A stretch of 11,867 bases of DNA from a virus. Its lineage: Duplodnaviria > Heunggongvirae > Uroviricota > Caudoviricetes. Location: the IMG/VR virus record IMGVR_UViG_2740892230_000035, one strand, 5' to 3'. The position numbers and the translations under genes were made by a program. Positions 1 to 10,791 of the stretch are shown one piece after another. The stretch's first letter is position 1, and each line of letters opens with the position of its first letter. Below the pieces are notes generated by a model that had not been told where the DNA came from, made no database searches, and saw only the letters and a program-made list of their open reading frames with translations.

Positions 1-334
1 ATGTCCCACGCTGTGGACGGTACTTACATTAAGGCACAACAGGACAAAATGGTCAATTCTTCGTTATGTAAAAAAGCGTCAGTGGATACATATTTTAATG
101 TTATGGAAGTTAATTTAATTATTTACAATGATGATGTAATAATGATGAATTAACATGATAAACGTAATAATTCATTAATCAGGGTTATTTTGTTTGATAT
201 ATATCAATTGGAACTTTCATATGACACTTAGAATCAATGCTCTCTATAGTGATGAATAATCATCATTCGAAGTCAGGTGGGATGCCTGTCTGAATACACC
301 TCCTTCAGGATGTGGGGGATTCTGCTGAGCATCT

Positions 335-676
335 ATGAAACTGAATGCAACTTATCTAAAAATACGTGATAAATGGTGGGGGCTTCCGCTGTTCCTGCCT
401 TCTTTAATCTTGCCCATTTTCGCCCACATTAATACTTTCGCGCATATTTCTTCCGGTGAGGTTTTTCTCTTTTATCTGCCTTTGGCACTGATGATCAGCA
501 TGATGATGTTTTTCAGCTGGGCGGCATTGCCAGGGATCACCTTAGGGATTTTTGTCCGCAAATATGCAGAGCTGGGTTTTTACGAAACGCTCTCATTAAC
601 GGCTAATTTTATTATCATTATCATTCTCTGTTGGGGCGGTTACAGGGTCTNNNNNNNNNNAACAGCTAACTCATAG
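335..676 (+). CDS. Putative multi-pass membrane protein (unrecognised family); 3' end interrupted by the 10-nt N-run at 651-660
   Basis: ORF with long hydrophobic stretches (LPLFLPSLILPIFA, FLFYLPLALMISMMMFFSWAALPGITLGIF, FIIIIILCWGG) followed by a terminator hairpin. True length is uncertain because of the gap. Confidence 0.4.
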   Translation: MKLNATYLKIRDKWWGLPLFLPSLILPIFAHINTFAHISSGEVFLFYLPLALMISMMMFFSWAALPGITLGIFVRKYAELGFYETLSLTANFIIIIILCWGGYRVXXXXTANS

Positions 677-704
677 CAAGTCATTCCTATTCAGATACTA
701 ACTC

Positions 705-737
705 AACCCTCTGTTTTTACAGAGGGTTTTTGTTTTT
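705..737 (+). terminator. Rho-independent terminator downstream of the membrane-protein ORF
   Basis: Inverted repeat CCCTCTG (707-713) / CAGAGGG (720-726) followed by TTTTTGTTTTT. Confidence 0.6.
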
Positions 738-793
738 ATGTATTCATTTCTATTCACTCTACACCATATTTTTCGGCGGTACAGGTGACGGTA

Positions 794-808
794 TTACCTT
801 AAAGGTAT
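794..808. promoter_or_regulatory. Operator-like dyad TTACCTTAAAGGTAT upstream of int, overlapping a candidate -10 (TATACT 806-811)
   Basis: Matches the TTACC-N5-GGTAA motif family; shares the 12-mer ACCTTAAAGGTA with the site at 6975-6989. Flanked by the 8-bp inverted repeat GACGGTAT (788-795) / ATACCGTC (815-822). Confidence 0.45.
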
Positions 809-850
809 ACTCTCATACCGTCATGAAAATGGTTTCTATACGGGTGAATT

Positions 851-2098
851 GTGCTTACCGATACAAAATTAAAAAACCTCAAGCCGCAGGACAAACTGTA
901 CAAGGTCTCCGATCGTGACGGGCTGTATGTAGCTGTGCTTACGTCAGGCACGGTCTCGTTTCGCTATGACTACCGTATCAACGGTCGCCGCGAAACACTG
1001 GTAATCGGGCAGTATGGGCGTGACGGTATCAGCCTGGCAGAAGCGCGAGAAGAACTGATTGCTGCAAAGAAGCTGCTTAAAGCAGGCCAGTCACCGGCTG
1101 CGGCTAAACGTGACGGTATCAAAAAGATTCGTGGTGCCGAGACGTTTGCGGTACATACCGACAGTTATATGAAACATGTCATCCTGGCTGACAGTACCCG
1201 CGCAATGAAGCAGGCGGTGATCGACCGTGACATACTTCCGGTTCTTGGCAACAAAATGATGACTGAAATTACCACATCGATGGTTCGTGATTTGTGTGAC
1301 CGGATTGTCGAACGCGGTGGTCGGGCAACAGCAGTGCAGGCCAGGGAGATCATCAGCAGCGTATACCGTCACGCCAATGACCGTGGTCATGGTTTGTTTA
1401 ATCCTGCGGCTGACATTAAACCTTCGTCTATCGCCATATTTAAACCACGAGAGCGAACACTGACACCAGAAGAAATTGGCCTGTTCTTCCGCACGCTGGA
1501 TGCCATTGGTGCTATGGGCACTATGAAAATGGCTTTAAAGCTGGTGCTTATCACTATGGTTCGTAAAGGCGAATTCACCAATGCAACGTGGGACGAAATA
1601 GATTTTAAAAAATGGACATGGACAATTCCTTCAGACCGCATGAAGGGAAGCCGGGCGCATGTTATTTACCTGCCTAAACAGGCACAGGATATATTGGTCG
1701 GGTTGCAGATGTACGCTGGTGGAAGTGAATATCTGGTTCCTGGTCGTTACAACTTCCGGAAGCCATTATCTAATGCCGCGCTGAACTCTCTGATCGACAG
1801 AACGGTGAAAATAATAAATGAAGATGGTGAGCATATTCAGGACTTCACCGTACATGATATGCGCCGTACAGCCAGTACGTTGTTGCATGAGGCTGGTTAT
1901 CCTTCAGACTGGATTGAAAAGGCTCTGGCACATGAGCAGAAAGGTGTGCGCGCCGTATATAACAAAGCGGAATACGCCAGACAGCGCGCCTACATGTTGC
2001 AGCAGTGGGCCGATATGATTGATTCCTGGATTGACGGGGAGCATACGGATCTGATTCCGTTCTCCCCGTCGAAGTTTGAGAAGTGGATGGCGGGATAA
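851..2098 (+). CDS. int: Phage tyrosine integrase, P4-type (site-specific recombinase)
   Basis: 415-aa ORF with GTG start. N-terminus MLTDTKLKNLKP...YKVSDRDGLY is typical of P4-family integrases. C-terminal catalytic signatures are visible (HDMRRTAST, ALAHEQKG, VYNKAEY), consistent with the R-H-R-Y active site. Confidence 0.92.
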   Translation: MLTDTKLKNLKPQDKLYKVSDRDGLYVAVLTSGTVSFRYDYRINGRRETLVIGQYGRDGISLAEAREELIAAKKLLKAGQSPAAAKRDGIKKIRGAETFAVHTDSYMKHVILADSTRAMKQAVIDRDILPVLGNKMMTEITTSMVRDLCDRIVERGGRATAVQAREIISSVYRHANDRGHGLFNPAADIKPSSIAIFKPRERTLTPEEIGLFFRTLDAIGAMGTMKMALKLVLITMVRKGEFTNATWDEIDFKKWTWTIPSDRMKGSRAHVIYLPKQAQDILVGLQMYAGGSEYLVPGRYNFRKPLSNAALNSLIDRTVKIINEDGEHIQDFTVHDMRRTASTLLHEAGYPSDWIEKALAHEQKGVRAVYNKAEYARQRAYMLQQWADMIDSWIDGEHTDLIPFSPSKFEKWMAG

Positions 2099-2104
2099 TA
2101 ACGT

Positions 2105-2299
2105 TTAATAGTTCTGCTGATTTTCTTCCATCTCGGCTTCTGCTGCCAGTGATTCAATTTTGTCTGCGAATATTGCTGACAGCGTTGCAAATTCAGCATC
2201 AGTGACAGCGGGAATTGGAACAAACCTGATCCCGCTGTGTGCAAGCATGTTTGCAGTTTCAAGGCATTTCCTTAAATCTGCTGGTGATGCCCTGTTCAT
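2105..2299 (-). CDS. Hypothetical small protein (64 aa) translationally coupled to the methyltransferase
   Basis: ATG at 2299..2297 overlaps the methyltransferase TGA stop (2298..2296) as ATGA. Product MNRASPADLRKCLETANMLAHSGIRF... No recognised family. Confidence 0.35.
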   Translation of the reverse strand: MNRASPADLRKCLETANMLAHSGIRFVPIPAVTDAEFATLSAIFADKIESLAAEAEMEENQQNY

Positions 2300-2946
2300 G
2301 CTGCACGCTCCCGCCCCTGGTTGTCTGTTGGTGACAGCGGAGCATTGCTGAATGCATTTGTTAATCCGGCAATATCCAACGCGTATCCAGGGTGTAGTTG
2401 CACTGCCGGGTCTTCGCACTGATTACCCCAAACATCGAAGCCATGAGACGTCTGGCGGGCGAATAGTTCAATGCGAGAAACATCGCCTAACAATTGCACA
2501 AGTTTTTCACGAACAATATCTGGTTTTCTTGAATGCTCAAGCCGCGGTGCGGTAAATGACTGAACGATCCCTGCATTAATGCGCGTAGGTAGTTTTCCCT
2601 TTACTGCAAACAGGCAATCTTCACTATTGGCGCGAGTCATGTGACCCATACCCATAACCAGTTTATCTGGTTGTCGACTACCACATTTTATCCACGTGAA
2701 TCCCTTCATGGTCATCAGACGGAATCCCCAGGCTTCAACAACTTTTAGTGCTTCGAGTGGTTGTGTTGGCACCCACCACATGGCCAACAGACAGTTTTCA
2801 TCGGCCAAATCCCACACAGGAAGGCGGCAGATATCCAGCACACTCATAACTGGATATTTAAAACCGGCACCGCGATTACCATCTGCGGCTTTGTCCCGGT
2901 ATGCCCAGGGTGGATCTGCATAGATTAGTGTGTATTTCTTAGTCAT
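2296..2946 (-). CDS. DNA N6-adenine methyltransferase, MT-A70 family (orphan, no cognate restriction enzyme seen)
   Basis: Product starts MTKKYTLIYADPPWAY; the DPPW motif is the catalytic motif IV of N6-adenine MTases. ATG at 2946 is preceded by GGGGTGG; a GTG at 2958 is an alternative start. Confidence 0.85.
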   Translation of the reverse strand: MTKKYTLIYADPPWAYRDKAADGNRGAGFKYPVMSVLDICRLPVWDLADENCLLAMWWVPTQPLEALKVVEAWGFRLMTMKGFTWIKCGSRQPDKLVMGMGHMTRANSEDCLFAVKGKLPTRINAGIVQSFTAPRLEHSRKPDIVREKLVQLLGDVSRIELFARQTSHGFDVWGNQCEDPAVQLHPGYALDIAGLTNAFSNAPLSPTDNQGRERAA

Positions 2947-3238
2947 AAACCACCCCACAACATCCTATGCCGCTATAGTCGCCACGGCGAAGGCCGTTAC
3001 CTTTTGTGATACATTGGTCCCTGCGAACCGCGATCCTTGCACGCTCAACATCACCAGAAGCAACATCCATACACTGAAGCCAAAGGTGAGCGGCAATGCG
3101 GAACTGCCCTTTTTTCTCTCTTTCAATCGCGCGTTTTTCGATCTCTATCGCCGCAGGAGTAACGGCGACAATCTTTGACGGACTGCGCATTGAAACCTTG
3201 TTCATGTGATATTTTTCAAGTCGGCTTAACTTTCTCAC
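2939..3238 (-). CDS. Hypothetical protein (99 aa), first gene of the methyltransferase cassette
   Basis: GTG start at 3238 preceded by AGAGGG. Stop codon (2941..2939) overlaps the methyltransferase start by 8 nt. No family recognised. Confidence 0.5.
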   Translation of the reverse strand: MRKLSRLEKYHMNKVSMRSPSKIVAVTPAAIEIEKRAIEREKKGQFRIAAHLWLQCMDVASGDVERARIAVRRDQCITKGNGLRRGDYSGIGCCGVVYD

Positions 3239-3347
3239 TTAATCCAACCCTCTCTGAAAATTAATGCCAGCAGATAAAGCCATGCTGAAACAGAGGCCAG
3301 GAATAAGTACCATCCTGACCATTTGCTCCAGTGCCTTAGCAGCGCAC

Positions 3348-3596
3348 TCATGCAGCGTTGCTCACAGGACGATATACACGTTGCTGAACAGGAGGTTTTT
3401 TACCCTGGAACTCTGCCGGGCTTGCTGCCTGACGTTCATCAAGCCAACGCTCAACTTCATCACGGTTCCATGCGCAGCGTTTATCGGTGATATACCAGCG
3501 TTTAGGAAATTCCCCTGCGCGCTCCATACGGTCGATAGTGCTCCATGACAGTGGCACCACCGCCAGGAGTTCCTTCTTACCTAATGCACCTTTCAT
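3348..3596 (-). CDS. AlpA-family excisionase / prophage transcriptional regulator (Xis-like)
   Basis: 82-aa product with LLAVVPLSWSTIDRMERAGEFPKRWYI...WNRDEVERWLDE, a winged-helix pattern typical of AlpA/Xis proteins. RBS GAGAGG 6 nt upstream of ATG. Confidence 0.8.
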   Translation of the reverse strand: MKGALGKKELLAVVPLSWSTIDRMERAGEFPKRWYITDKRCAWNRDEVERWLDERQAASPAEFQGKKPPVQQRVYRPVSNAA

Positions 3597-3645
3597 AAAT
3601 ACCTCTCTTGGTTGCAGTGCGGCGCGCGTGGCGCCGCGGTGGTGG

Positions 3646-4527
3646 TTACATAGATGTTTCGTTTAATTCTTCCCGACGAACGCTGTAAACGTCGGTGGCT
3701 TTTGCCAGCAGTTCGTCATCATCTGAAAGTTTTTGTGCAATGTATTTGTAAGCCTTATCCAGTTCGGAGACAGTGCTGTAATTCATCGCTGCGCTGGTAA
3801 AGGCCATCAGCATTTCTTCTGGCTCACGGCTATCCGCTTTACGCGTTTGCTCATCAGGCTTTTTCACTGATTTAGCGTTGATCAGACTGTTCATTCCCGC
3901 AGCCGTAGTCATTTGCGGAGTAATGTCTCGCTCAACGCGCGGTGCCGTTTCCTGTAATTCGTCAGGGGTGTAAACACCGAGAAGTACATCAGGAGCGTGC
4001 AGGCGAGCCCATCGTTTCGTGCAAAGATAGGCGAGCTGCTGGCGCGGATCCTGTTCCCACAATGGAGAGTTACGCACTCCGGCTTGCGCCATACTGATGG
4101 TAAGCTCACGTGGTTCTGCTTCTCCTTTAAGAACTGCTGACACAGTTACCGTCAGATTCGGTGATTTATCTGTTTTGCCGTTAACATTCGACCAGTCACC
4201 GCTCCAGCGATAATTCAGGCGTGTCGCCAGCAGGCTGGAAGAGGATACGACCGCGTTTACCAACTGTGCTTCGTAGCCTAACGTTCCGTTTACCACATGC
4301 GTTTTCTGCGCCACGGCGAACGGGTTCATTCCCCACTGTGCCGCCTGCATGGTCACCGCCAGGCAATCGGCAGGTTTGCCTTCAAGATGTTTCGGTACAG
4401 TCGCTTTGCTTTGTGACATCAACTCCGCGAAACGCACCAGTTGATTCATGCCCTCGGGGCTGAAGATTGCCGCAGCAGTGCCTACAGTTGCGCCTGGTTG
4501 TGATGTGATTGCGATATCATTGCTCAT
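3646..4527 (-). CDS. RecT/Bet-family single-strand annealing recombinase
   Basis: 293-aa product; GMNPFAVAQKTHVV...GYEAQL and the C-terminal ERDITP segment resemble lambda Bet/RecT as I recall them. ATG overlaps the upstream exonuclease stop as ATGA (4527..4524). Confidence 0.8.
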   Translation of the reverse strand: MSNDIAITSQPGATVGTAAAIFSPEGMNQLVRFAELMSQSKATVPKHLEGKPADCLAVTMQAAQWGMNPFAVAQKTHVVNGTLGYEAQLVNAVVSSSSLLATRLNYRWSGDWSNVNGKTDKSPNLTVTVSAVLKGEAEPRELTISMAQAGVRNSPLWEQDPRQQLAYLCTKRWARLHAPDVLLGVYTPDELQETAPRVERDITPQMTTAAGMNSLINAKSVKKPDEQTRKADSREPEEMLMAFTSAAMNYSTVSELDKAYKYIAQKLSDDDELLAKATDVYSVRREELNETSM

Positions 4528-5345
4528 ACATACATATCCTGTTTACGTGCCCAGTCAGGACGTTTAATAATTTCCACTCCGCCCCATTCATCGTTGATGC
4601 GGCATTCGTGATAGGTATTCAGATCCCGGCGGAACAGAGCGTGCCCGGCATCGACATCCGGCACATCCAGCTCGAACACGCGTACCGGATACCGACCACA
4701 ATCAATGCTTTCGCTCACGGCAAGAAAGAAAAAACCATGCGGCTGACCAGTAACCCTCATTGCGCCTTCGCGGTACATTGCGTCCTGCACGTGGTAGCGG
4801 AATTCCTCGATGTGACGTGCAAAACGCTCCATATCTGCAACCTTTTTCACGTCGACGATCACGTTGTGCTCGTTCAGCCATTTGTCTGGACGAATTCGGC
4901 ACAACTCACCAGTCTCTTCATCGTTCCAGTACATTGACGCTTCGCAGTAACCAGGTGCTTCCAGCATCCAGCGTGCCGCCGGGTGAGCCATTGCGCTATC
5001 ACGCATCAGCTCCAGTTTCCGCCACTGCTCGGCATCAAGTACCGTAATCCCCATATCCGCCACATCACGAAGAAATGCCTCTTCGTCAGCTTTACCTTGT
5101 TTCGTCCGACGATCGAATTTCGGTGAAACAATGAAGCGTTTGTCGAACTCTCCAGGCTCCAGAAGCAGACAGTGCAATGCGGTTCCCATATCCAGTGCAG
5201 ACTTTTTCTCTTCGTCTTCTGGTGCTGCCTGAACCCATTTAAGAAGCGCCGGATTCTTGGCAACCATGTCAAGTTGCGACTTACTCACGCCGTCACCGGC
5301 GTGGTAGTCTTCGTTGCTGATGTCGAAATAAATTCCCGGTTTCAT
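4524..5345 (-). CDS. RecE-like (exonuclease VIII catalytic domain type) PD-(D/E)XK exonuclease
   Basis: 273-aa product with N-terminus MKPGIYFDISNEDYHAGDGVSKSQL and a candidate active-site segment RIRPDKW...VIVDVKKV. Paired with the RecT-like gene. ATGA overlap with the upstream ORF at 5345..5342. Confidence 0.75.
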   Translation of the reverse strand: MKPGIYFDISNEDYHAGDGVSKSQLDMVAKNPALLKWVQAAPEDEEKKSALDMGTALHCLLLEPGEFDKRFIVSPKFDRRTKQGKADEEAFLRDVADMGITVLDAEQWRKLELMRDSAMAHPAARWMLEAPGYCEASMYWNDEETGELCRIRPDKWLNEHNVIVDVKKVADMERFARHIEEFRYHVQDAMYREGAMRVTGQPHGFFFLAVSESIDCGRYPVRVFELDVPDVDAGHALFRRDLNTYHECRINDEWGGVEIIKRPDWARKQDMYV

Positions 5346-5641
5346 GCCGCGTCCTTCTGTCCATCAAGCTGATCCGCCAGATCCCAGCGGGCGATAATTG
5401 CCATTGCCTCTCGCCGATAGGCATCCATCAGTTCTTCGAACTCAGGGCTGTCTTTAGCAGCCTCCAGTACTTCCTGACGAACGCCTTTGCCTGTTACAAC
5501 GTCGAAAGTTGAGGACAGTTGATGAAGTCGGATGCTCTCAATCAGTTCAACTTGTCGGTCATATAGCTGTTCTGACAGGCGGTAGTCCTTGTCGAATGCC
5601 AGCATGATTTTTTGAAGATTTTTCTGCTGATTAACGTTCAT
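5342..5641 (-). CDS. Hypothetical early protein (99 aa) upstream of the exonuclease
   Basis: ATG at 5641 preceded by GGAGGG (8-nt spacing). Product MNVNQQKNLQKIMLAFDKDYRLSEQLYDRQVELIES...; acidic C-terminus; no recognised family. Confidence 0.55.
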   Translation of the reverse strand: MNVNQQKNLQKIMLAFDKDYRLSEQLYDRQVELIESIRLHQLSSTFDVVTGKGVRQEVLEAAKDSPEFEELMDAYRREAMAIIARWDLADQLDGQKDAA

Positions 5642-5643
5642 TA

Positions 5644-5796
5644 TCAGCCCTCCCATATCTCGTTATCGTTGGCCACATCGCGAGCTTCTTTGCTGACGAA
5701 AGCCCACTTAATGCCTTCCTGTAAGGTGCGGAACTTCCAGCTCATGAATCCGCATGCAGTAACGCAGTACCAACCGTTGATGATTTTCCACTGCAT
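5644..5796 (-). CDS. Small hypothetical protein (50 aa), first ORF of the leftward early operon; below the supplied ORF-track length cutoff
   Basis: ATG at 5796..5794 with GAGG 9 nt upstream. Product MQWKIINGWYCVTACGFMSWKFRTLQEGIKWAFVSKEARDVANDNEIWEG. TGA stop sits 2 nt before the next ATG. Confidence 0.4.
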   Translation of the reverse strand: MQWKIINGWYCVTACGFMSWKFRTLQEGIKWAFVSKEARDVANDNEIWEG

Positions 5797-5815
5797 AACT
5801 TGTTACCTCGGCTTG

Positions 5816-5892
5816 TTACCGTTTAGGTAATGATTATGCGTATCTGGTTTGATGTCAATAGATATGAGTTAAAAAAATTACCTGTAAGGTAA
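5816..5892 (-). promoter_or_regulatory. Left operator/promoter region (OL/pL analogue): two 15-bp dyads flanking a candidate leftward promoter
   Basis: TTACCGTTTAGGTAA (5816-5830) and TTACCTGTAAGGTAA (5878-5892). On the minus strand a consensus TTGACA (-35; complement of 5854-5859) lies between them, with a CATAAT-like -10 at roughly 15-bp spacing. Confidence 0.55.
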
Positions 5893-5902
5893 TTGTGCGG
5901 GC

Positions 5903-5929
5903 AATAAAAAAGCCGCCATGAGGCGGCTT
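5903..5929 (-). terminator. Rho-independent terminator downstream of the repressor gene
   Basis: Minus-strand hairpin AAGCCGCC-TCAT-GGCGGCTT followed by TTTTTTATT; 21 nt after the repressor stop codon. Confidence 0.65.
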
Positions 5930-5949
5930 ACTTACTGAAAACTATAGTT

Positions 5950-6534
5950 TTATTGTTTGCTTTTTTCGTTCTGGCTGATGACAAATTCAATGTAACTTTC
6001 GATCTTTGCCTTCTCTGTTTCAGGTAACAATGCGTAGCGCGAGCGGTCATAGTTGATAGTTGCAGGGTCATGCGGGTGAATCAGTAGTTCATATCCGTGA
6101 CGCCCGAATGCTGATGCAACATTCTCCAGGGTGGAAATGGAAACGCTGACCTCATTGTTTAACAGGCGGCTAATTGTCACCTGGGCGACGCCGGATGCGC
6201 GGTGAAGTTTTCCCTGTGTTGAAAGGTCGCGGCTTTCGCTCATCCAGCGTTCCAGGTTGTGAGCCGCCAGCTGACCAATGTCGCTTGGTCCGACAGGCTG
6301 AACCCCCTCCTGAGAAAGCGAGCGATCGATATCAAGCCAGTTACGGGGTTTATTGGCGGCAGCTTCAATTTTTCGCGCAACCTGGTCGCCGATAACCTTC
6401 TTGCCAAGAGCCCAGCGGTTTACCAGATTTGCCTGAGTTCCAAGTTTTTCTGCCATCCGCGTCTGAACACCATTGAATTCACGGTCGATCAAGTCGTTGA
6501 GATTTTGCCTGCGGACGTCCTGGATACTTTTCAT
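5950..6534 (-). CDS. Prophage repressor (CI-like) with two HTH-like segments and no recognisable S24 autocleavage domain
   Basis: 194 aa. N-terminal HTH-like segment (QTRMAEKLGTQANLVNRWALGKK) and a second (LHRASGVAQVTISRLLNNE). Divergent from a Cro-like gene across an operator cluster. No obvious RBS; possibly leaderless or weakly initiated. Confidence 0.8.
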   Translation of the reverse strand: MKSIQDVRRQNLNDLIDREFNGVQTRMAEKLGTQANLVNRWALGKKVIGDQVARKIEAAANKPRNWLDIDRSLSQEGVQPVGPSDIGQLAAHNLERWMSESRDLSTQGKLHRASGVAQVTISRLLNNEVSVSISTLENVASAFGRHGYELLIHPHDPATINYDRSRYALLPETEKAKIESYIEFVISQNEKSKQ

Positions 6535-6589
6535 TTTCTGGAGAATCGCCTCATATATGAATCAGTAGATGATTCAATTTAAAGCAATA

Positions 6590-6652
6590 TTACCCAACAG
6601 GTAAATGCACCCCATAGGTAACTATCCTTGATTTTTGTTACCTTATGGGTGA
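6590..6652. promoter_or_regulatory. Right operator region (OR analogue) with three 15-bp dyad sites and divergent promoters
   Basis: TTACCCAACAGGTAA (6590-6604), GCACCCCATAGGTAA (6607-6621), TTACCTTATGGGTGA (6638-6652). Candidate rightward promoter: -35 TTGTTA (6635-6640), 17-bp spacer, -10 TATTAT (6658-6663), overlapped by the third site. Confidence 0.6.
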
Positions 6653-6688
6653 ATATTTATTATCTGAAATAAATATCAGGCAATAGCT

Positions 6689-6919
6689 ATGAGCGATAAC
6701 GGACATTTCGATTTCAAAAAGCACTGGCTTGCACTTACTCCGGATGAGCGTGAAGCCTTCGCACAGGAAGCCGGAACGACGAGTCACTATATCCAGACTC
6801 ACTTAACAGGTAAGCGCAAAATGCCAGGTAAAGTATTGATGAATGGGCTTTTTAAAGCCTGTAAAACAAGACAATGGCTGCGCTCAAAAGCAGAACTGGC
6901 ATACTTCTTCTACTCATGA
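6689..6919 (+). CDS. Cro-like small HTH DNA-binding regulator
   Basis: 76-aa ORF divergent from the repressor. HTH-like segment EAFAQEAGTTSHYIQTHLTGKRK. Followed by a terminator. Confidence 0.7.
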   Translation: MSDNGHFDFKKHWLALTPDEREAFAQEAGTTSHYIQTHLTGKRKMPGKVLMNGLFKACKTRQWLRSKAELAYFFYS

Positions 6920-6940
6920 TATCCAGCCACAAACCTCTGT

Positions 6941-6965
6941 AGACCGCCATCCGGCGGTCTTTTCA
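6941..6965 (+). terminator. Rho-independent terminator after the cro-like gene (tR1 analogue)
   Basis: Hairpin GACCGCC-ATCC-GGCGGTC followed by TTTT. Confidence 0.6.
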
Positions 6966-6974
6966 TATCTATTC

Positions 6975-6989
6975 GCACCTTAAAGGTAA
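6975..6989. promoter_or_regulatory. Operator-like dyad GCACCTTAAAGGTAA between the terminator and the replication genes
   Basis: Motif-family member; shares ACCTTAAAGGTA with the site upstream of int. A TTGATC -35-like hexamer lies at 7007-7012. Confidence 0.4.
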
Positions 6990-7067
6990 TAAAAAACCAA
7001 ATCTGGTTGATCAAATTTTCCAATTGTGCAAAATAGCCAATATCAATAACAAAAAGGGGCGGAAAAA

Positions 7068-7280
7068 TTGAAGATAGTAACCAGAATGGAGGCCGCAAAA
7101 GCCGGGTTAAATCGCTATTTCACAGGAAAGCGGTGCCGTCACGGCCATCTCTCTGAAAGGTATGTTCTGAACGGAACATGTGTTGAATGTGCAATGAATA
7201 GCGCCAACCGCCATCGTAATGAATTTGCTTGTGCACTAAAGAGTGCAAGAGGGGAAACCTATGGCAAGCAGCTGGATTAA
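7068..7280 (+). CDS. Small putative zinc-binding protein (C-x-H-x-H ... C-x2-C) in the position lambda cII occupies
   Basis: TTG start at 7068 with AGGGG 8 nt upstream (in-frame ATG alternative at 7086). Product contains GKRCRHGHLSERYVLNGTCVEC. Overlaps the next gene start by 20 nt. Confidence 0.5.
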   Translation: MKIVTRMEAAKAGLNRYFTGKRCRHGHLSERYVLNGTCVECAMNSANRHRNEFACALKSARGETYGKQLD

Positions 7281-8085
7281 GGTTGAAGTTATCACTCCTG
7301 ATAAACCTGAAATTTTTCAGATAGCAGAAATTCTGGGTATTGATCCAGATGCTGTTCTTGGAAAGCTGGTTCGTATATGGGCATGGGCTGACCAGCAAAC
7401 AATAGACGGTAACGCTGGCAGCGTTACAAAAGGAGTACTTGATAGACTCGCTTTTATTACAGGATTTGCTGACGCCCTCATTAGCGTCGGATGGCTTGCT
7501 TATCATGACGGCAAACTAATTCTTCCAAACTTTGAGCGACACAATGGAGAATCATCGAAAAAACGTGCACTTACGAATAGAAGAGTGGCAGAGCATCGAA
7601 AACGAGTAACGCAAAAAGTAACGCCAACAGCGTTACAAAAGGAGTTACCAGAGGAAGAGGAAGATATATATAAAACCCCACACATAGCACACGCGCGCGA
7701 GAGTGATCCGACCAGTGAAGCGAACGGTACGCCGTTGCAGGTGGCAGAACCTGCATTTCTGGATGGCCTGAGTGAACCTATTGGGAAATTTCCGATGACC
7801 GATGGCTGGCATCCATCGCCGGATTTTCGACGGCGTGCTGCGCTGTGGGGAACGGCCCTGCCGGAACCGGAATTTACACCTGCTGAACTTGCTGCATTCC
7901 GGGATTACTGGATGGCTGAGGGCAAAGTGTTCACGCAGGTTCAGTGGGAACAAAAATTCGCCAGGCACGTAAATCATATCAGGGGAAAATCAAAAAACGT
8001 CGGGAAAAGCGATGAGCTTGACTGGAATAACACTGACTGGATAGAAGGGGTGTGGGATGAAATCAACTCCAGAACTTCTCAATGA
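7261..8085 (+). CDS. Phage replication initiation protein / replisome organizer (O analogue), probably with a DnaT-like C-terminal domain
   Basis: ATG at 7261 with AGAGGGG RBS. Sits immediately upstream of, and overlapping, the P-like gene. Contains an internal iteron cluster and an acidic linker (EEEED). Family assignment is from recall. Confidence 0.75.
   Translation: MASSWIKVEVITPDKPEIFQIAEILGIDPDAVLGKLVRIWAWADQQTIDGNAGSVTKGVLDRLAFITGFADALISVGWLAYHDGKLILPNFERHNGESSKKRALTNRRVAEHRKRVTQKVTPTALQKELPEEEEDIYKTPHIAHARESDPTSEANGTPLQVAEPAFLDGLSEPIGKFPMTDGWHPSPDFRRRAALWGTALPEPEFTPAELAAFRDYWMAEGKVFTQVQWEQKFARHVNHIRGKSKNVGKSDELDWNNTDWIEGVWDEINSRTSQ
7406..7680. repeat. Candidate replication origin inside the organizer gene: iteron-like repeats plus an AT-rich tract
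   Basis: Perfect 19-bp palindrome GTAACGCTGGCAGCGTTAC (7409-7427). 18-bp direct repeat CAGCGTTACAAAAGGAGT at 7419-7436 and 7628-7645, in different reading frames. Further GTAACGC copies at 7606-7612 and 7618-7624 and GCGTTAC at 7630-7636. AT-rich GAAGATATATATAAAA at 7661-7676. Confidence 0.5.
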
Positions 8086-8833
8086 GTACGATCGCTTACG
8101 TGAGCATGGTGTTGCTGTGCATGAAGAGCGGCGTGACAGCAATGGCAAAAAGGAGCAGGTCGCTAGAATTTTCAATGAACTATTTGTCCAGTTACAGGCT
8201 GCATTTCCTGCAAGCGTTTCGACCATAAGGGAGCAGAACAAACTTAATGAATTCCGTAAGCAATGGATGCTTGCGTTTCTGGAGAATGGGATCACTACAA
8301 TGGAACAGGTTAACGCTGGTATGCGCCACGCCCGCGCCAGTGAATCTCCGTTCTGGCCGTCGCCTGGGCAATTTATCAAGTGGTGCAAAGACAGCAAGAT
8401 GGTTCTTGGTGTCACCATTGACGATGTGATGGCGGAGTTTCACCGGTACAGCAAGGAAAAAAGTTTATATCCTGGCGGTCCCGAAAGATTCCCGTGGCGG
8501 CATCCGGTTATGTACTGGGTTGTATGTGATACCCGCCGCGCAATGTATCAGCGCCAGCTTAGCGAGATTGAGGTTGAGAAACACGCGCGCAGGTTGCTCG
8601 ATGATTGGGCGAAAAAGGTGGCTTCCGGACAGCAGATACCCGATCCGGTGATCAGCATACAGGCAAAGCCAGAACCCATGAGTACACCTCCGGACACAGG
8701 GAGAGACGTTTACCATCCACCAGGGCGAAGTTTCGGGTGCATGCCTAACGCCGCCACCCTGGGGGGAATAACACCGGCGCAGTGGCTGATGGAGGAATAC
8801 AGGCGGGGAAAGGCGGCAGGATTTATCAAGTAA
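8057..8833 (+). CDS. P: Lambda P-like replication protein (helicase loader)
   Basis: Central region (AFPASVSTIREQNKLNEFRKQWMLAFLENGITTMEQVNAGMRHARASESPFWPSPGQFIKWC) closely parallels lambda P as I recall it. ATG at 8057 with GAAGGGG RBS; overlaps the upstream gene by 29 nt. Confidence 0.85.
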   Translation: MKSTPELLNEYDRLREHGVAVHEERRDSNGKKEQVARIFNELFVQLQAAFPASVSTIREQNKLNEFRKQWMLAFLENGITTMEQVNAGMRHARASESPFWPSPGQFIKWCKDSKMVLGVTIDDVMAEFHRYSKEKSLYPGGPERFPWRHPVMYWVVCDTRRAMYQRQLSEIEVEKHARRLLDDWAKKVASGQQIPDPVISIQAKPEPMSTPPDTGRDVYHPPGRSFGCMPNAATLGGITPAQWLMEEYRRGKAAGFIK

Positions 8834-8837
8834 TACC

Positions 8838-8858
8838 AGCGCGATAGCGCATTTTTTT
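8838..8858 (+). terminator. Possible weak intrinsic terminator after the P-like gene
   Basis: Short GC stem GCGC-GATA-GCGC followed by a run of seven T. The stem is only 4 bp. Confidence 0.35.
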
Positions 8859-8870
8859 ACGCCTATATAA

Positions 8871-8947
8871 TTACCTGATGGGTAACAAAATATTCTTATA
8901 TCTATTGATTTTGTGCCTTATGTGGTTTTTAATTACCTTAGAGGTAA
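8871..8947 (+). promoter_or_regulatory. Internal operator-flanked promoter upstream of the DUF1064-like gene
   Basis: TTACCTGATGGGTAA (8871-8885) and TTACCTTAGAGGTAA (8933-8947) bracket -35 TTGATT (8905-8910), a 17-bp spacer, and -10 TTTAAT (8928-8933). The second dyad overlaps the -10 and the RBS of the downstream gene. Confidence 0.55.
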
Positions 8948-8950
8948 ATC

Positions 8951-9295
8951 ATGAGAAAACAGATACAGGCTCTTGGTCGACTCAAAACAGGCCAGATGAA
9001 CAAAACAGAATCTGCGTATTGCCAGTACCTTGAGCAGCGTAAACGTGCAGGGGAAGTCGCCTGGTATCGGTTCGAGGGTATCAAGCTGCGGCTGGCTGAC
9101 AACACGTTCTATACGCCCGATTTTGCTGTGATGCTCGCCACCGGCGAGATGGAACTGCACGAAGTGAAAGGTTTCTGGACCGACGACGCCAGGGTGAAAA
9201 CCAAAGTCGCCGCAGATCAGTATCCGTTCCGAATCATCGGGGTAACGGTTAAGCCAAAGAAAGCAGGTGGTGGCTGGAACATCGAAGAGTTCTGA
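8951..9295 (+). CDS. Phage protein, DUF1064-like (assignment from recall)
   Basis: 114-aa ORF with GAGGT RBS 6 nt upstream. Contains ...YTPDFAVM...ELHEVKG..., a pattern I associate with DUF1064. Confidence 0.6.
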   Translation: MRKQIQALGRLKTGQMNKTESAYCQYLEQRKRAGEVAWYRFEGIKLRLADNTFYTPDFAVMLATGEMELHEVKGFWTDDARVKTKVAADQYPFRIIGVTVKPKKAGGGWNIEEF

Positions 9296-9335
9296 ATCGA
9301 CGATCTTTTTAGTTATCAATGTAATCAATAAGTTA

Positions 9336-9344
9336 TGTGGATAA
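9336..9344 (-). promoter_or_regulatory. Consensus DnaA box (TTATCCACA on the minus strand) just upstream of the Ea22-like gene
   Basis: Plus strand reads TGTGGATAA at 9336-9344. A degenerate TTATCAATG lies at 9313-9321. A single 9-mer could be chance. Confidence 0.3.
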
Positions 9345-9356
9345 GCGAGGGTAAAG

Positions 9357-9963
9357 ATGGACGGTAATATCAAAGGGTTAGTTTCCGCCGGGCATGAGAT
9401 GGCTTCGGAACTGAAAGCTGAATGTGGTGCCGTTGATATGCGCAGCGTGGCAAAGCTGATCAGCGATTTGGCAACGCAACTGGAAGTGCAACTGGCGCGT
9501 GCTAATGCGCTGGCCGAAGACCAGCAGAAAGCGATTGAGTCAATTAAGCAGGCTGATGCGGCTGTTAAGTTGGCACACGAGAAGTTTTCGGCTCTGGCGG
9601 CGGAGAATGCGGGGCTGAATAAATTTATCGCACAGAGTTGCTACGTGTTTGATGGCGAGCAGGATGAGCTATCTGATGCGTATATCTGCGCAACAGATGG
9701 AGGGATGCCGCAAATTCCAGCCACCGATGCTTTTCTGGCTGAAATTCGTGCGGAGGCTCGCAACGAGGGGATTAACTATACCGCAAGCCGTCTTGCTGCT
9801 GCTTNNNNNNNNNNCACCAGCCACCGATGCTTTCCTGGCTGAAGTCCGGGCGCAGGGTGTGGAGATGTTCTCAGAAAAATTCGGAGGTGGCACTCCGCTA
9901 TCCAATATGGTCAAAGAGGTTGCTGCTGATTTTGCGGCGAAGCTTCGCAAAGGAGGTGAGTAG
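9357..9963 (+). CDS. ead/Ea22-like family protein with coiled-coil N-terminus; interrupted by the N-run at 9805-9814 (apparent frame shift across the gap)
   Basis: Two ORF-track pieces (9357-9842 and 9649-9963) share the repeat PATDAFLAEIRAE / PATDAFLAEVRAQ on either side of the gap. Ends ...AAKLRKGGE. Confidence 0.65.
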
Positions 9964-10173
9964 TGCGTGTGGCATGTATCGGCTTGTTNNNNNNNNNNCC
10001 ACGGATTTATCAATAAGTCTTTACGTGAAGTTTTCGACGTTACGCGCATGATTCTGTCAGCAAAAGAAGAGTTAGCTAATGAATCGCATCCGATTGATGG
10101 CCTGTCCGGTGAATATGCAGAGAAATCCCTTGAAGAATGGGCGGAACGGCTTCGCAAAGGAGGCAACCAGTGA
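9963..10173 (+). CDS. Small Ea22-region ORF (about 68 aa) interrupted by the N-run at 9989-9998; start uncertain
   Basis: GTG at 9963 preceded by AGGAGG; ends ...WAERLRKGGNQ, echoing the upstream gene end. Frame across the gap cannot be verified. Confidence 0.35.
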
Positions 10174-10577
10174 GCAAGATTGACTATCAGGCACTGCGTG
10201 AAGCGGCAGAGAAAGCCGGTGAAGATAAGTGGCAGGCTAAAAAAATAAATGGTGATTTTTTCGTTATTCGTCACGGTAGTTATACAAGACAGCATGGCTA
10301 CACATCGTATCAACCCATTGCGGAGATTGATTGTAAGCCAGTCCGGGATTTTGTTGCCAAGGCTAATCCGGCTACCGTGCTGGAATTACTGGATGAACTG
10401 GAAGCAGCAAAAAAGCGCATTGCAGAACTGGAAGCGCGGGAAATACTGCTCCCGGAACGTAGCAGCATGCTTCATCGAACAGATTTTCACGATGATTACC
10501 AAACGGTAATGGCATACAAAGTTTCTGAAGTCATCGATGCAATCCGCGCTACTGGCATTCGCATCAAAGGAGAGTGA
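10170..10577 (+). CDS. ead/Ea22-like family protein
   Basis: GTG start at 10170 with AGGAGG 7 nt upstream. Product MSKIDYQALREAAEKAGEDKW...ANPATVLELLDELEAAKKRIAELEA matches the conserved Ea22-like pattern as I recall it. Confidence 0.65.
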   Translation: MSKIDYQALREAAEKAGEDKWQAKKINGDFFVIRHGSYTRQHGYTSYQPIAEIDCKPVRDFVAKANPATVLELLDELEAAKKRIAELEAREILLPERSSMLHRTDFHDDYQTVMAYKVSEVIDAIRATGIRIKGE

Positions 10578-10614
10578 GATGAACGNNNNNNNNNNAACGC
10601 AGGAGAACAAAACG

Positions 10615-10791
10615 ATGAAAAACCGTAAAGCAAAACGACTTTTTTTACAGCGACCTGTGCGTGTGGTGGAGCTGGTTATCAGCAACCATAAGATAGCGGT
10701 ACTCCATCCATTTGGTCAGGTGGCTTTTGCCGCAAAGCGTAAGCCTAGCGCGTCACAGAACAGGCGGAAGAAAGGGTACGCAGTAAGATGA
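10615..10791 (+). CDS. Small basic hypothetical protein (58 aa), paralog A
   Basis: ATG with AGGAG 9 nt upstream. Product MKNRKAKRLFLQRPVRVVELVISNHKIAVLHPFGQVAFAAKRKPSASQNRRKKGYAVR. Confidence 0.45.
   Translation: MKNRKAKRLFLQRPVRVVELVISNHKIAVLHPFGQVAFAAKRKPSASQNRRKKGYAVR

What the first reader, a model, noticed from the sequence alone, without database searches (positions are those of the whole stretch)
794..8947. Nine copies of a 15-bp dyad (TTACC-N5-GGTAA) confined to five control regions
Sites at 794-808, 5816-5830, 5878-5892, 6590-6604, 6607-6621, 6638-6652, 6975-6989, 8871-8885 and 8933-8947 all fit TTACC-N5-GGTAA or a one-half-site variant (GCACC, GGTGA, GGTAT). Every one is intergenic and next to a promoter-like element; my scan found no 15-bp (N5-spaced) match inside coding sequence. 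This looks like the operator set of the tandem-HTH repressor and/or Cro. It reaches beyond the classical OL/OR pair to the int upstream region, the post-terminator region before the replication genes, and an internal promoter. That implies direct multi-promoter repression rather than a lambda-style antitermination cascade.
Basis: partly seen in the sequence, partly recalled or inferred. Interest (0 to 1): 0.72.

Follow-up and report, generated by a model that had tools for sequence, protein, structure and literature searches.

The report
Repressor operators of an epsilon15-like prophage
The nine repeated 15-bp palindromes are real and are almost certainly the binding sites through which this E. 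coli prophage's repressor shuts off each of its early promoters, but the same sites were already recognised in its close relatives epsilon15 and SPC32H, so the finding is correct but ordinary.

Summary
Exact TTACC-N5-GGTAA occurs 5 times against 0.00 expected, and 7 times at one mismatch or fewer against 0.23 expected. Only the 5-bp spacer is enriched. 100 kb of E. coli chromosome holds no exact copy. The two GCACC variants are not significant on sequence alone, but they align with sites in related phages.

The window is an epsilon15/phiV10-like prophage, 100% identical to phage TL-2011b over the control region. The epsilon15 GenBank record already annotates this motif as 'repressor' binding sites. 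SPC32H, Tyrion and a Klebsiella phage carry it at the same positions. The 194-aa repressor is a full-length homologue of the crystallised SPC32H Rep, a tetramer that is inactivated by a LexA-controlled antirepressor rather than by self-cleavage.

Two promoters (PL and the one at 8905-8933) share one layout. A distal operator lies 19 nt upstream of the -35 hexamer. A proximal operator starts at the last base of the -10 hexamer. The two operator centres are 62 bp apart, a spacing kept in 9 of 10 operator pairs in five phages. In the whole TL-2011b genome all 14 good sites lie in non-coding DNA, including upstream of late genes.

This is a new member of a known kind, and interest is low.

The parts
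794..808 (.). Dyad upstream of int (TTACCTTAAAGGTAT, one mismatch). Probable operator, but it overlaps another repeat system and an RNA hairpin.
   Evidence: Weight-matrix score 17.0, above the host maximum of 12.8. The same site, including the GGTAT variant, lies upstream of int in epsilon15, SPC32H and Tyrion. The whole int-upstream region is conserved, so this conservation is weak evidence. The site is embedded in a GTGACGGTAT inverted repeat (785-794 / 815-824) and a stable hairpin (z = -3.9).
5816..5830 (.). OL proximal operator. It starts at the last base of the PL -10 hexamer and covers the likely transcription start.
   Evidence: Exact match. PL has -35 TTGACA at 5858-5853 and -10 AATCAT at 5835-5830 on the minus strand. 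The half-site columns are invariant in a 5-phage alignment.
5830..5858 (-). PL promoter (TTGACA, 17-nt spacer, AATCAT) driving the leftward recombination/excision operon.
   Evidence: Best sigma-70-like match in the region, 10 of 12. CTATTGAC is invariant in 5 phages.
5878..5892 (.). OL distal operator, 19 nt upstream of the PL -35 hexamer. Its centre is 62 bp from the centre of the proximal operator.
   Evidence: Exact match with the highest weight-matrix score, 26.2. Same geometry as the 8871/8933 pair. Invariant half-sites.
5910..5929 (-). Rho-independent terminator ending the repressor transcript.
   Evidence: 8-bp stem with 6 G-C pairs plus a T-run. Annotated as a terminator in phiV10.
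5950..6534 (-). Rep, a 194-aa immunity repressor. It has an N-terminal HTH DNA-binding domain followed by dimerisation and tetramerisation/Ant-binding regions, and no S24 peptidase domain.
   Evidence: Pfam finds HTH families only. Full-length match to SPC32H Rep, PDB 5D50/5D4Z, E = 6.6e-42. NLVNRW in the HTH is invariant in 5 phages. The protein is 98.5% identical to the ZX5 repressor, which was shown to repress.
6590..6604 (.). OR3-like operator, nearest to rep. It overlaps the candidate rep promoter (-35 TTTACC = reverse complement of 6600-6605; -10 TTAAAT = reverse complement of 6577-6582).
   Evidence: Exact match. Both candidate hexamers fall in columns invariant across the 5 phages. The promoter assignment is my inference.
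6607..6621 (.). OR2-like weak operator (GCACCCCATAGGTAA).
   Evidence: Two mismatches and weight-matrix score 6.9, so not significant alone. It aligns column for column with exact TTACC-N5-GGTAA sites in epsilon15 and SPC32H. The GCACC variant is shared with phiV10 and Tyrion.
6638..6652 (.). OR1-like operator, lying in the spacer and -10 region of the rightward promoter PR (-35 TTGATT at 6628-6633).
   Evidence: One mismatch, score 15.5. TTGATT is invariant in 5 phages. The promoter scan gives an alternative reading, TTGTTA-17-TATTAT at 6635-6663, which also overlaps the site.
6689..6919 (+). Cro-like 76-aa HTH protein (epsilon15 gp39 homologue), a candidate second binder of the same sites.
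   Evidence: phrog_35 'transcriptional repressor', E = 5.6e-13. Weak HTH similarity to the Rep N-terminal domain. AGTTSHYIQ.HLT is invariant in 5 phages. No Pfam or PDB hit.
6941..6960 (+). Terminator after the cro-like gene.
   Evidence: 8-bp stem with 6 G-C pairs plus a T-run. Annotated in phiV10.
6975..6989 (.). Weak operator after the cro terminator (GCACCTTAAAGGTAA), 17 nt upstream of a conserved TTGATC (7007-7012) that could be the -35 of the replication-gene promoter.
   Evidence: Score 10.8, within the background range. The same position holds GTACC-N5-GGTAA in phiV10 and Tyrion and ACACC-N5-GGTAA in epsilon15 and SPC32H, followed in all by a conserved GGTTGATC.
8871..8885 (.). Distal operator of the promoter in front of the DUF1064 gene.
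   Evidence: Exact match. Invariant half-sites in a 5-phage alignment, preceded by a conserved terminator-like GCGC stem plus T7 run.
8905..8933 (+). Promoter (TTGATT, 17-nt spacer, TTTAAT) built like PL.
   Evidence: Read from the sequence. Aligning it with PL gives the same 19-nt gap, CTATTGA, 17-nt spacer and -10/operator junction. TATTGA is invariant. It fell below the scan's threshold because position 2 of the -10 hexamer is T.
8933..8947 (.). Proximal operator. It starts at the last base of the -10 hexamer, and its right half overlaps the Shine-Dalgarno sequence (GAGGT) of the gene that starts at 8951.
   Evidence: Exact match, score 24.0. Its centre is 62 bp from the centre of the 8871 site. 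Invariant columns.

Best explanation
The nine dyads are the operators of the immunity module of an epsilon15/phiV10-like temperate podovirus (here about 99-100% identical to phage TL-2011b).

The 194-aa Rep recognises each TTACC/GGTAA dyad with a pair of N-terminal HTH domains. Rep is a homologue of the tetrameric SPC32H Rep.

Site by site:
- At PR (6638) the operator lies between the -35 and -10 hexamers, so bound Rep excludes RNA polymerase.
- At PL (5816/5878) and at the promoter before the DUF1064 gene (8871/8933), one operator abuts the -10 and start site. A second lies 19 nt upstream of the -35, with the two centres 62 bp apart (about 6 helical turns, same face). One tetramer, which has two DNA-binding pairs, could therefore hold both operators and trap the promoter between them.
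- The sites at 6590 and 6607 sit over and just upstream of the probable rep promoter, which would give autoregulation as at lambda OR3/OR2.
- Weaker single sites guard the promoter after the cro terminator (6975) and probably int (794).

The Cro-like protein (6689-6919) probably uses some of the same sites during lytic growth. Because Rep has no self-cleavage domain, induction goes through a small LexA-controlled antirepressor, Ant, encoded outside the window.

Shown here: the sites, their enrichment, their conservation and geometry, and the homologies. Inferred: who binds, promoter assignments other than PL, bridging of paired sites, and autoregulation.
For: - Enrichment and spacer specificity of the motif.
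- The window is 100% identical to TL-2011b over 5600-9000 and 99.4% over 661-9756.
- The epsilon15 record AY150271.2 annotates seven 'protein_bind: repressor; lysogeny' features that are this 15-bp core plus or minus 1 nt.
- The same motif lies at the same positions in SPC32H, Tyrion and Klebsiella phage ST512-KPC3phi13.3. Alignments of the OR, PL and 8871-8947 regions show half-sites, -35 hexamers and terminators invariant while spacers and flanks vary.
- Rep is a full-length homologue of SPC32H Rep, PDB 5D50, E = 6.6e-42. The literature describes that protein as a tetramer binding palindromic sites, with an N-terminal DNA-binding domain, and disassembled by Ant (PMC9638917; PMC9986798).
- The ZX5 repressor is 98.5% identical. 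When overexpressed it cut lysis-gene transcripts by more than 99.9% (PMC9782041).
- The Rep HTH motif NLVNRW is invariant although the proteins are only 42-45% identical overall.
- In whole TL-2011b, 14 of 14 sites with one mismatch or fewer are non-coding.
- The Ant homologue is 88% identical to SPC32H Ant and has a perfect LexA box upstream.
- A Pseudomonas phage has a homologous repressor N-terminal domain and a homologous Cro-like ORF, but an S24-type C-terminus. It carries TTACC-N4-GGTAA sites in the equivalent OR and OL positions.
- The 62-bp spacing holds in 9 of 10 operator pairs across five phages.
Against: - No binding data for this phage were available. The primary papers on epsilon15 and SPC32H could not be read, so I could not confirm that the SPC32H Rep footprint is this exact dyad.
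- Rep and the Cro-like protein are both conserved wherever the motif occurs, so comparison cannot say which of them binds which site.
- Sites 6607 and 6975 are within the background score range.
- Site 794 overlaps a different repeat and a hairpin.
- The promoters other than PL are weak matches assigned by conservation and analogy.
- A 62-bp loop is short and would need DNA bending. Bridging of the paired sites is untested.
Confidence: 0.85

Rival explanations
1. The dyads are bound only by the Cro-like protein or another phage regulator (the PerC-like activator at 2939-3238, the AlpA-like protein at 3348-3596, or the regulator encoded before terS), not by Rep.
For: The Cro-like protein is more conserved than Rep (76% against 43% identity between TL-2011b and epsilon15) and co-occurs with the motif in every phage examined, including the Pseudomonas phage. 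No binding data were accessible.
Against: - The epsilon15 annotators assigned the sites to the repressor.
- Sites overlap core promoter elements of every early unit, including PR, which drives the cro-like gene itself. That is the pattern expected of a maintenance repressor.
- The Rep HTH recognition stretch is invariant although the rest of the protein has diverged.
- Paired sites fit a tetramer with two DNA-binding pairs.
- PerC-like and AlpA-like genes are not adjacent to the sites.
Confidence: 0.07
2. For the int-upstream site only (794-808), the dyad is a by-product of another element rather than a Rep operator. That element could be integrase arm-type sites (GTGACGGTAT repeats) or an RNA hairpin in the int leader that affects processing or translation.
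For: GTGACGGTAT occurs 5 times, at 785, 815(-), 1020, 1110 and 1363(-), against 0.56 expected. Epsilon15 annotates the equivalents as integrase sites and the surrounding stretch as an RNase III site. RNA 780-830 folds at -16.1 kcal/mol, z = -3.9. The whole region is conserved, so conservation of the site is not specific to it.
Against: The site scores 17.0 on a matrix trained elsewhere, above anything in 100 kb of host DNA. Its dyad centre (801) is offset from the centre of the outer inverted repeat (804.5). The spacer varies (CTAAA/TTAAA) while both half-sites are kept. The two roles are not mutually exclusive.
Confidence: 0.3
3. The palindromes act at the RNA level (short 5-bp hairpins at mRNA 5' ends), are host-factor sites, or are a chance or recombination-junction feature.
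For: Proximal sites lie at or just after likely transcription starts. Promoter cassettes are typical mosaic joints in phage genomes (general knowledge).
Against: - Across the roughly 50 sites listed at one mismatch or fewer in the relatives, the half-sites keep their sequence and show no compensatory changes. The variants (GCACC, GGTGA, GGTAT) break pairing rather than preserve it.
- Distal sites lie upstream of the -35 hexamers and would not be in the transcript.
- 100 kb of host DNA has no exact copy, so this is not a common host regulon motif.
- Chance is excluded.
Confidence: 0.03

Closest known systems
Putative repressor-binding sites of Salmonella phage epsilon15 (GenBank AY150271.2; Kropinski et al. 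2007, Virology 369:234. From memory, that paper gives a 17-bp hyphenated inverted-repeat consensus, ATTACCWDWWNGGTAAT; I could not read it here)
   Same: - The TTACC-N5-GGTAA core is identical.
- The positions match: sites after the repressor terminator flanking PL, a pair 62 bp apart before the gene that follows the replication genes, and a site upstream of int.
- The repressor family is the same.
- The sites are likewise scattered over many transcription units.
   Different: - The epsilon15 record annotates only strict 17-mers (7 sites). It leaves out the three OR sites, the int site and the proximal site of the 35907/35969 pair, which the relaxed 15-bp definition finds.
- This phage has two OL sites, not three.
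- Its OR2 and post-cro sites have a degenerate left half, GCACC.
- Repressor identity is only 43%.
Rep-Ant lysis-lysogeny switch of Salmonella phage SPC32H (Kim & Ryu 2013, J Virol; Kim et al. 2016, PNAS; PDB 5D50, 5D4Z)
   Same: - The repressor is a full-length homologue (E = 6.6e-42).
- TL-2011b encodes an Ant that is 88% identical, with a LexA box upstream.
- SPC32H carries the same dyads at the same places.
- Rep is described as binding palindromic sites as a tetramer.
   Different: - Rep is 42% identical overall, 53% in the DNA-binding domain.
- TL-2011b additionally carries P22-type Ant/Arc-like and Bro-N genes.
- I could not verify from the primary papers which operators were tested.
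Lambda CI/Cro with tripartite OR and OL
   Same: - The repressor and cro-like genes are divergent, with three dyads between them.
- One dyad lies over PR, one next to the probable rep promoter -35, and one over that promoter.
- A second operator cluster lies at PL.
- Sites that can be held together by a repressor oligomer.
   Different: - The repressor has no S24 self-cleavage domain. Induction is by an antirepressor.
- The operators are 15-bp dyads with a 5-bp spacer.
- Operators also sit at int, at the replication-gene unit, at a further early unit and, in the whole genome, at late units.
- No N- or Q-like genes were detected.
Pseudomonas phage PseuP_224 cI module (found here, not from the literature)
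   Same: - The repressor N-terminal HTH domain is homologous (39% identity over residues 4-68), and there is a homologous Cro-like ORF.
- The half-sites TTACC/GGTAA are the same.
- There are three sites between cI and cro and two after the cI terminator.
   Different: - The spacer is 4 bp, not 5.
- The repressor C-terminus is LexA/S24-like (GNSMEP motif), so it presumably self-cleaves.
DNA-looping tetrameric repressors such as Rco of plasmid pLS20
   Same: The architecture is an N-terminal HTH plus a C-terminal tetramerisation domain. That domain was noted to be shared with SPC32H Rep (PMC9986798). Paired operators here suggest bridging.
   Different: Looping has not been shown for Rep. The operator spacing here is only 62 bp.

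Membership tests
epsilon15/SPC32H-type Rep operator set (Uetakevirus immunity module) | Hyphenated inverted repeat TTACC-N5-GGTAA, the core of the sites annotated as repressor-binding in epsilon15 | tested here: met
   5 exact and 2 one-mismatch sites in the window. The epsilon15 annotated features are this core plus or minus 1 nt.
epsilon15/SPC32H-type Rep operator set (Uetakevirus immunity module) | The cognate repressor is a Rep/gp38 homologue: N-terminal HTH, dimerisation and tetramerisation/Ant-binding regions, no S24 peptidase domain | tested here: met
   PDB 5D50 match over residues 1-190, E = 6.6e-42. Pfam finds HTH families only. Alignment with epsilon15 and SPC32H Rep.
epsilon15/SPC32H-type Rep operator set (Uetakevirus immunity module) | Matching placement: three sites between rep and the divergent gp39-like gene; sites after the rep terminator flanking PL; a pair before the gene that follows the replication genes | tested here: met
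   Alignments A1, A5 and A4. Spacings of 17/30-31 bp and 62 bp are shared.
epsilon15/SPC32H-type Rep operator set (Uetakevirus immunity module) | A small antirepressor (Ant) under LexA control elsewhere in the phage genome | tested here: met
   TL-2011b gp47 is 88% identical to SPC32H Ant. CTGTATAAATATACAG lies upstream of it. Both are outside the window.
epsilon15/SPC32H-type Rep operator set (Uetakevirus immunity module) | Physical binding of Rep to the dyads and repression of the adjacent promoters | not testable with these tools
   There is only indirect support. Overexpression of the ZX5 repressor shuts off lytic genes. Rep is described as binding palindromic sites. The primary papers are not held.
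Lambda-type CI/Cro switch with antitermination cascade | Three operators between divergent repressor and cro genes | tested here: met
   Sites at 6590, 6607 and 6638 lie between rep (start at 6534) and the cro-like gene (start at 6689).
Lambda-type CI/Cro switch with antitermination cascade | Repressor with a C-terminal LexA-like (S24) self-cleavage domain | tested here: not met
   No Peptidase_S24 hit. The C-terminal half matches the SPC32H Rep oligomerisation/Ant-binding part.
Lambda-type CI/Cro switch with antitermination cascade | N- and Q-type antiterminators that carry transcription through terminators into delayed-early and late genes | tested here: inconclusive
   No such family was found among the window's ORFs in Pfam or PHROGs. 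Small N-like proteins are easily missed. An uncharacterised regulator precedes terS.
Lambda-type CI/Cro switch with antitermination cascade | Operators confined to OL and OR | tested here: not met
   Additional sites lie at int, after the cro terminator and before the DUF1064 gene. In the whole genome they also lie before terS, the portal module and tailspike/ant.
Integrase arm-type site / int-leader hairpin (site 794 only) | Member of the repeated GTGACGGTAT family, or part of a stable leader structure | tested here: inconclusive
   The dyad shares one base with the 785-794 copy and lies inside the 785-824 hairpin. It also scores as a strong operator. The two roles may coexist.

The most novel reading that the evidence does not exclude
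Two linked ideas make up the most novel reading that my evidence does not exclude.

First, one Rep tetramer clamps two operators whose centres are exactly 62 bp apart, enclosing the whole -35/-10 region in a tight micro-loop. This promoter-bracketing layout (distal operator, 19 nt, -35, 17 nt, -10, proximal operator) would be the physical counterpart of the unusual 'trans' pairing of DNA-binding domains seen in the SPC32H Rep structure.

Second, a single repressor using this layout, plus single sites, would directly silence every transcription unit of the phage (early, replication, int and late) with no regulatory cascade. It would do so with an operator specificity that stays unchanged across E. 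coli, Salmonella, Enterobacter and Klebsiella phages whose repressors are only about 42% identical.
Probability: 0.3. Interest if true: 0.45.

Novelty: new member of a known kind. Interest (0 to 1): 0.2.

Why it matters
The finding gives a complete operator and promoter map for the early region of a prophage type present in about 12% of complete E. coli genomes (672 of 5426). That group includes the phiV10 relatives used as O157 reporter phages. Neither the TL-2011b nor the phiV10 record annotates any operator.

The conserved 62-bp operator pairs are a ready-made test bed for how the tetrameric SPC32H-type Rep represses. A 2023 paper states that this "has not been extensively characterized" (PMC9986798).

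It does not change the current understanding of phage regulation. The motif, the repressor family and the antirepressor route of induction were already described in close relatives.

Tried and rejected
- Primary literature. I tried to read the epsilon15 genome paper (PMC2698709, PubMed 17825342) and the two SPC32H papers (PMC3807360, PMC4983836). None is held. Searches for the consensus string and for TTACC/GGTAA with operator and antirepressor found nothing relevant. The statement that epsilon15's authors proposed a 17-bp consensus therefore rests on the GenBank features and my memory.
- Covariation test. I looked for relatives whose repressor has a different recognition helix and a different dyad, to separate Rep from Cro as the binder. 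All full-length Rep homologues in the phage collection (42-78% identical) use the same half-site. The distant Pseudomonas phage keeps the half-site and has homologues of both proteins. The test therefore cannot discriminate.
- Other repeats in the Klebsiella phage. A generic inverted-repeat search of its intergenic regions returned nothing beyond what the pattern search gave.
- Rep promoter. The consensus scan found no minus-strand promoter in 6535-6688. The TTTACC-17-TTAAAT candidate is based only on invariant alignment columns.
- RNA-level explanation. Rejected because the half-sites are kept by sequence, not by pairing.
- Host regulon motif. Rejected because 100 kb of host DNA holds no exact copy. 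A whole-genome scan was not possible, because collection scans need at least 14 specified bases.
- Structure prediction and the large protein searches were not used. The PDB sequence match already settled the repressor's family.

Full report

Yes. All nine 15-mers are at the stated coordinates. Exact TTACC-N5-GGTAA occurs 5 times against 0.00 expected from 200 shuffles. At one mismatch or fewer there are 7 against 0.23 expected. At two mismatches or fewer there are 16 against 3.3 +/- 1.6. The other seven all lie inside ORFs, a count at the upper end of the chance range (largest shuffle total 8).

Changing the spacer from 0 to 12 bp shows that only N5 is enriched. Two 50-kb pieces of an E. coli chromosome hold no exact copy and four one-mismatch copies. 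Seven score 15.5-26.2, while the best score in 100 kb of host DNA is 12.8.

The two GCACC sites (6607 and 6975) score 6.9 and 10.8 and are not significant on sequence alone. 'No match in coding sequence' holds at one mismatch or fewer, but not at the tolerance used to admit those two sites.

**2. What is the locus?**

The gene map from ORFs and Pfam/PHROGs:

| Coordinates | Strand | Product |
|---|---|---|
| 851-2098 | + | P4-type integrase |
| 2296-2958 | - | MT-A70 methylase |
| 2939-3238 | - | PerC-like activator |
| 3348-3596 | - | AlpA-like protein |
| 3646-4527 | - | RecT |
| 4524-5345 | - | PDDEXK exonuclease |
| 5342-5656, 5644-5796 | - | two small unknown proteins |
| 5950-6534 | - | HTH repressor |
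| 6689-6919 | + | 76-aa Cro-like HTH protein |
| 7086-7280 | + | small protein |
| 7261-8085 | + | DnaT-like replication protein |
| 8057-8833 | + | lambda-P-like protein |
| 8951-9295 | + | DUF1064 protein |

Accessory genes follow. The leftward genes from 2296 to 5796 form one operon.

Window 5600-9000 is 100% identical to Escherichia phage TL-2011b, and 661-9756 is 99.4% identical. TL-2011b is an epsilon15/phiV10-like podovirus. 672 of 5426 complete E. coli genomes have a match.

**3. The motif is shared and already annotated.**

The epsilon15 GenBank record carries seven 'protein_bind: repressor; lysogeny' features. A pattern search shows that each is this 15-bp core plus or minus 1 nt. 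Epsilon15 has 11 exact and 4 one-mismatch copies against 0.61 expected. They include three between the repressor gene and gp39 (33341, 33358, 33388; spacing 17 and 30 bp, against 17 and 31 bp here). One lies upstream of int (TTACCCTAAAGGTAT). A pair lies 62 bp apart before gene 43.

SPC32H, Enterobacter phage Tyrion and a Klebsiella phage show the same pattern.

Alignments of the OR region (A1), of the 8834-8953 region (A4) and of the PL region (A5) have invariant columns at the half-sites, at the -35 hexamers (CTATTGA), at the -10/operator junctions and at the terminators. The 5-bp spacers and the sequence between elements vary. This is the footprint of protein recognition. The half-sites never show compensatory changes, which argues against an RNA-structure role.

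From memory (marked as such), Kropinski et al. 2007 proposed a 17-bp hyphenated inverted repeat as the epsilon15 operator. The paper is not held.

**4. Who binds?**

The window's repressor matches SPC32H Rep (PDB 5D50) over residues 1-190 with E = 6.6e-42. Secondary literature describes that protein as follows:
- It has an N-terminal DNA-binding domain, a middle dimerisation domain and a C-terminal tetramerisation/Ant-binding domain.
- It binds palindromic sites as a tetramer in which each DNA-binding pair comes from different dimers.
- It is taken apart by a tetrameric antirepressor (PMC9638917; PMC9986798).

The second Pfam HTH hit (residues 106-147) falls in the part that is not the DNA-binding domain in the solved homologue. 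'Tandem HTH' should therefore not be read as two DNA-reading heads.

The repressor of phage ZX5 is 98.5% identical. When overexpressed it abolished free phage and cut lysis-gene transcripts by more than 99.9% (PMC9782041).

The Rep DNA-binding domain is more conserved than the rest of the protein (53% against 38% identity to SPC32H), and NLVNRW is invariant. The Cro-like protein is also conserved, with an invariant AGTTSHYIQ.HLT. It matches phrog_35 and is weakly similar to the Rep HTH. Comparison alone therefore cannot say which sites each protein uses.

A distant check points the same way. Pseudomonas phage PseuP_224 has a cI with a homologous N-terminal domain but a LexA-like C-terminus, plus an unannotated Cro-like ORF. 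It has TTACC-N4-GGTAA sites between the two genes and after the cI terminator. The half-site therefore travels with this HTH family.

**5. Architecture and likely mechanism.**

- PL is the best promoter match in the region: TTGACA at 5858-5853, a 17-nt spacer, and AATCAT at 5835-5830 on the minus strand. The proximal operator (5816-5830) starts at the last base of the -10 hexamer. The distal operator (5878-5892) ends 19 nt upstream of the -35.
- The 8871-8947 region is the same layout on the plus strand: distal operator, 19 nt, TTGATT (8905-8910), 17 nt, TTTAAT (8928-8933), then the proximal operator, whose right half overlaps the Shine-Dalgarno sequence of the 8951 gene.
- The centre-to-centre distance is 62 bp in both. 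The same is true in 9 of 10 such pairs in five phages; the tenth is 63 bp. The 19-nt gap is not dictated by promoter geometry. Its conservation suggests that the two operators must face the same side of the helix, as expected if one tetramer holds both. That step is inferred.
- At OR, the invariant TTGATT (6628-6633) is the likely PR -35, and the 6638 site fills the spacer and -10 region. On the other strand, TTTACC (reverse complement of 6600-6605), a 17-nt spacer and TTAAAT (reverse complement of 6577-6582) lie in invariant columns. This makes a candidate rep promoter, overlapped by the 6590 site and abutted by the weak 6607 site, an arrangement like lambda OR3/OR2 (inference).
- The 6975 site follows the cro terminator (6941-6960) and lies 17 nt before a conserved TTGATC (7007-7012). 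The equivalent sites in relatives keep a perfect right half and a degenerate left half.
- The 794 site is a strong match, but it lies inside a GTGACGGTAT inverted repeat. That repeat has three more copies in or near int and is annotated in epsilon15 as integrase sites. The 794 site also lies inside a stable hairpin.

**6. Beyond the window.**

In complete TL-2011b there are 10 exact and 4 one-mismatch sites, and all 14 are in the 17% of the genome that is not annotated as coding. The extra sites lie:
- just before terS (two, 18 bp apart, after a terminator);
- before the portal module;
- between the ant-like gene and the tailspike gene;
- in the accessory region around 33.3-34.5 kb.

TL-2011b gp47 is 88% identical to SPC32H Ant. 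A perfect LexA box, CTGTATAAATATACAG, lies upstream of it. This fits SOS induction through an antirepressor rather than through repressor cleavage.

**7.

The operator assignment and the claim that control reaches beyond OL/OR are supported. The conclusion 'direct multi-promoter repression rather than an antitermination cascade' fits the repeated terminator-promoter-operator units. No N- or Q-like family was detected. It remains an inference, and an uncharacterised regulator gene precedes terS.

**8. Novelty.**

The motif, the repressor family, the dispersed distribution of the sites and the antirepressor route are all on record for epsilon15 and SPC32H. Neither the TL-2011b nor the phiV10 record annotates operators. 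I found no paper that describes them for this phage group beyond promoter prediction in ZX5.

This is therefore a new member of a known kind. The relaxed 15-bp definition recovers the OR sites that the epsilon15 annotation omits. The conserved 62-bp layout is a small addition that could be tested.

Noticed in passing
window 7409-7427 and 7618-7636: Two near-identical hairpin-forming inverted repeats lie inside the DnaT-like replication gene: GTAACGCTGGCAGCGTTAC and GTAACGCCAACAGCGTTAC. Each is followed by AAAAGGAGT. They may be origin or iteron elements, as with lambda ori inside gene O.
   Followed up: no
window 785-794, 815-824 (-), 1020-1029, 1110-1119, 1363-1372 (-): There are five copies of GTGACGGTAT (one with a mismatch) against 0.56 expected. 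Two form an inverted repeat around the 794 dyad and three lie inside the int gene. Epsilon15's record calls the equivalents integrase-binding sites.
   Followed up: partly
window 8920-8930; L003 14878-14888 and 35644-35654: ATGTGGTT followed by three A/T bases occurs three times in TL-2011b against 0.22 expected. Each copy is at the -10 region of a promoter that also carries a TTACC or GGTAA element: before the DUF1064 gene, the portal module and the tailspike gene. It could be a shared promoter element or the site of a second regulator.
   Followed up: partly
window 10495-10510: ATTACCAAACGGTAAT is a perfect 6+6 palindrome with a 4-bp spacer, inside the Ead/Ea22-like gene. It is the only exact non-N5 hit in the window. 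N4 is the spacing used by the Pseudomonas phage PseuP_224 operators. It may be chance or a site for a different repressor of the same family.
   Followed up: no
L003 (TL-2011b) 35542-35557: A perfect LexA box, CTGTATAAATATACAG, lies upstream of gp47, which is 88% identical to the SPC32H antirepressor Ant. A one-mismatch Rep-type dyad (35597) lies between it and the tailspike gene.
   Followed up: yes
window 6995-7008: A second small palindrome, AACCAAATCTGGTT, lies directly after the 6975 site and runs into the conserved TTGATC. It is kept in phiV10, Tyrion, epsilon15 and SPC32H (ACCA.AT..GGTTGATC). Its function is unknown.
   Followed up: no
L003 34385-34399 and 34478-34492; 33333-33347: Three exact dyads lie in the accessory region of TL-2011b. 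Two of them fall inside a stretch annotated only as 'similar to hypothetical protein'. The third lies between a small hypothetical-protein gene (next to the YafO-family toxin gene) and a Bro-N gene. This suggests that Rep also controls cargo genes.
   Followed up: no
L009 (PseuP_224) 2161-2391 (-), 2422-2475, 3296-3337: There is an unannotated 76-aa Cro-like ORF divergent from an S24-type cI whose N-terminal domain is homologous to Rep. TTACC-N4-GGTAA sites lie between the two genes (three) and after the cI terminator (two).
   Followed up: partly
window 10615-10791 and 10788-10979: Two adjacent small ORFs both begin MKNRKAK and look like a tandem duplication.
   Followed up: no
window 1-660, 9805-9814, 9989-9998, 10586-10595: Four runs of 10 N mark scaffold joins. 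Window 1-650 carries a MASE1-domain gene fragment and matches TL-2011b 42953-43596, not the sequence next to int in that record. The prophage-host junction is therefore not resolved in this window.
   Followed up: partly
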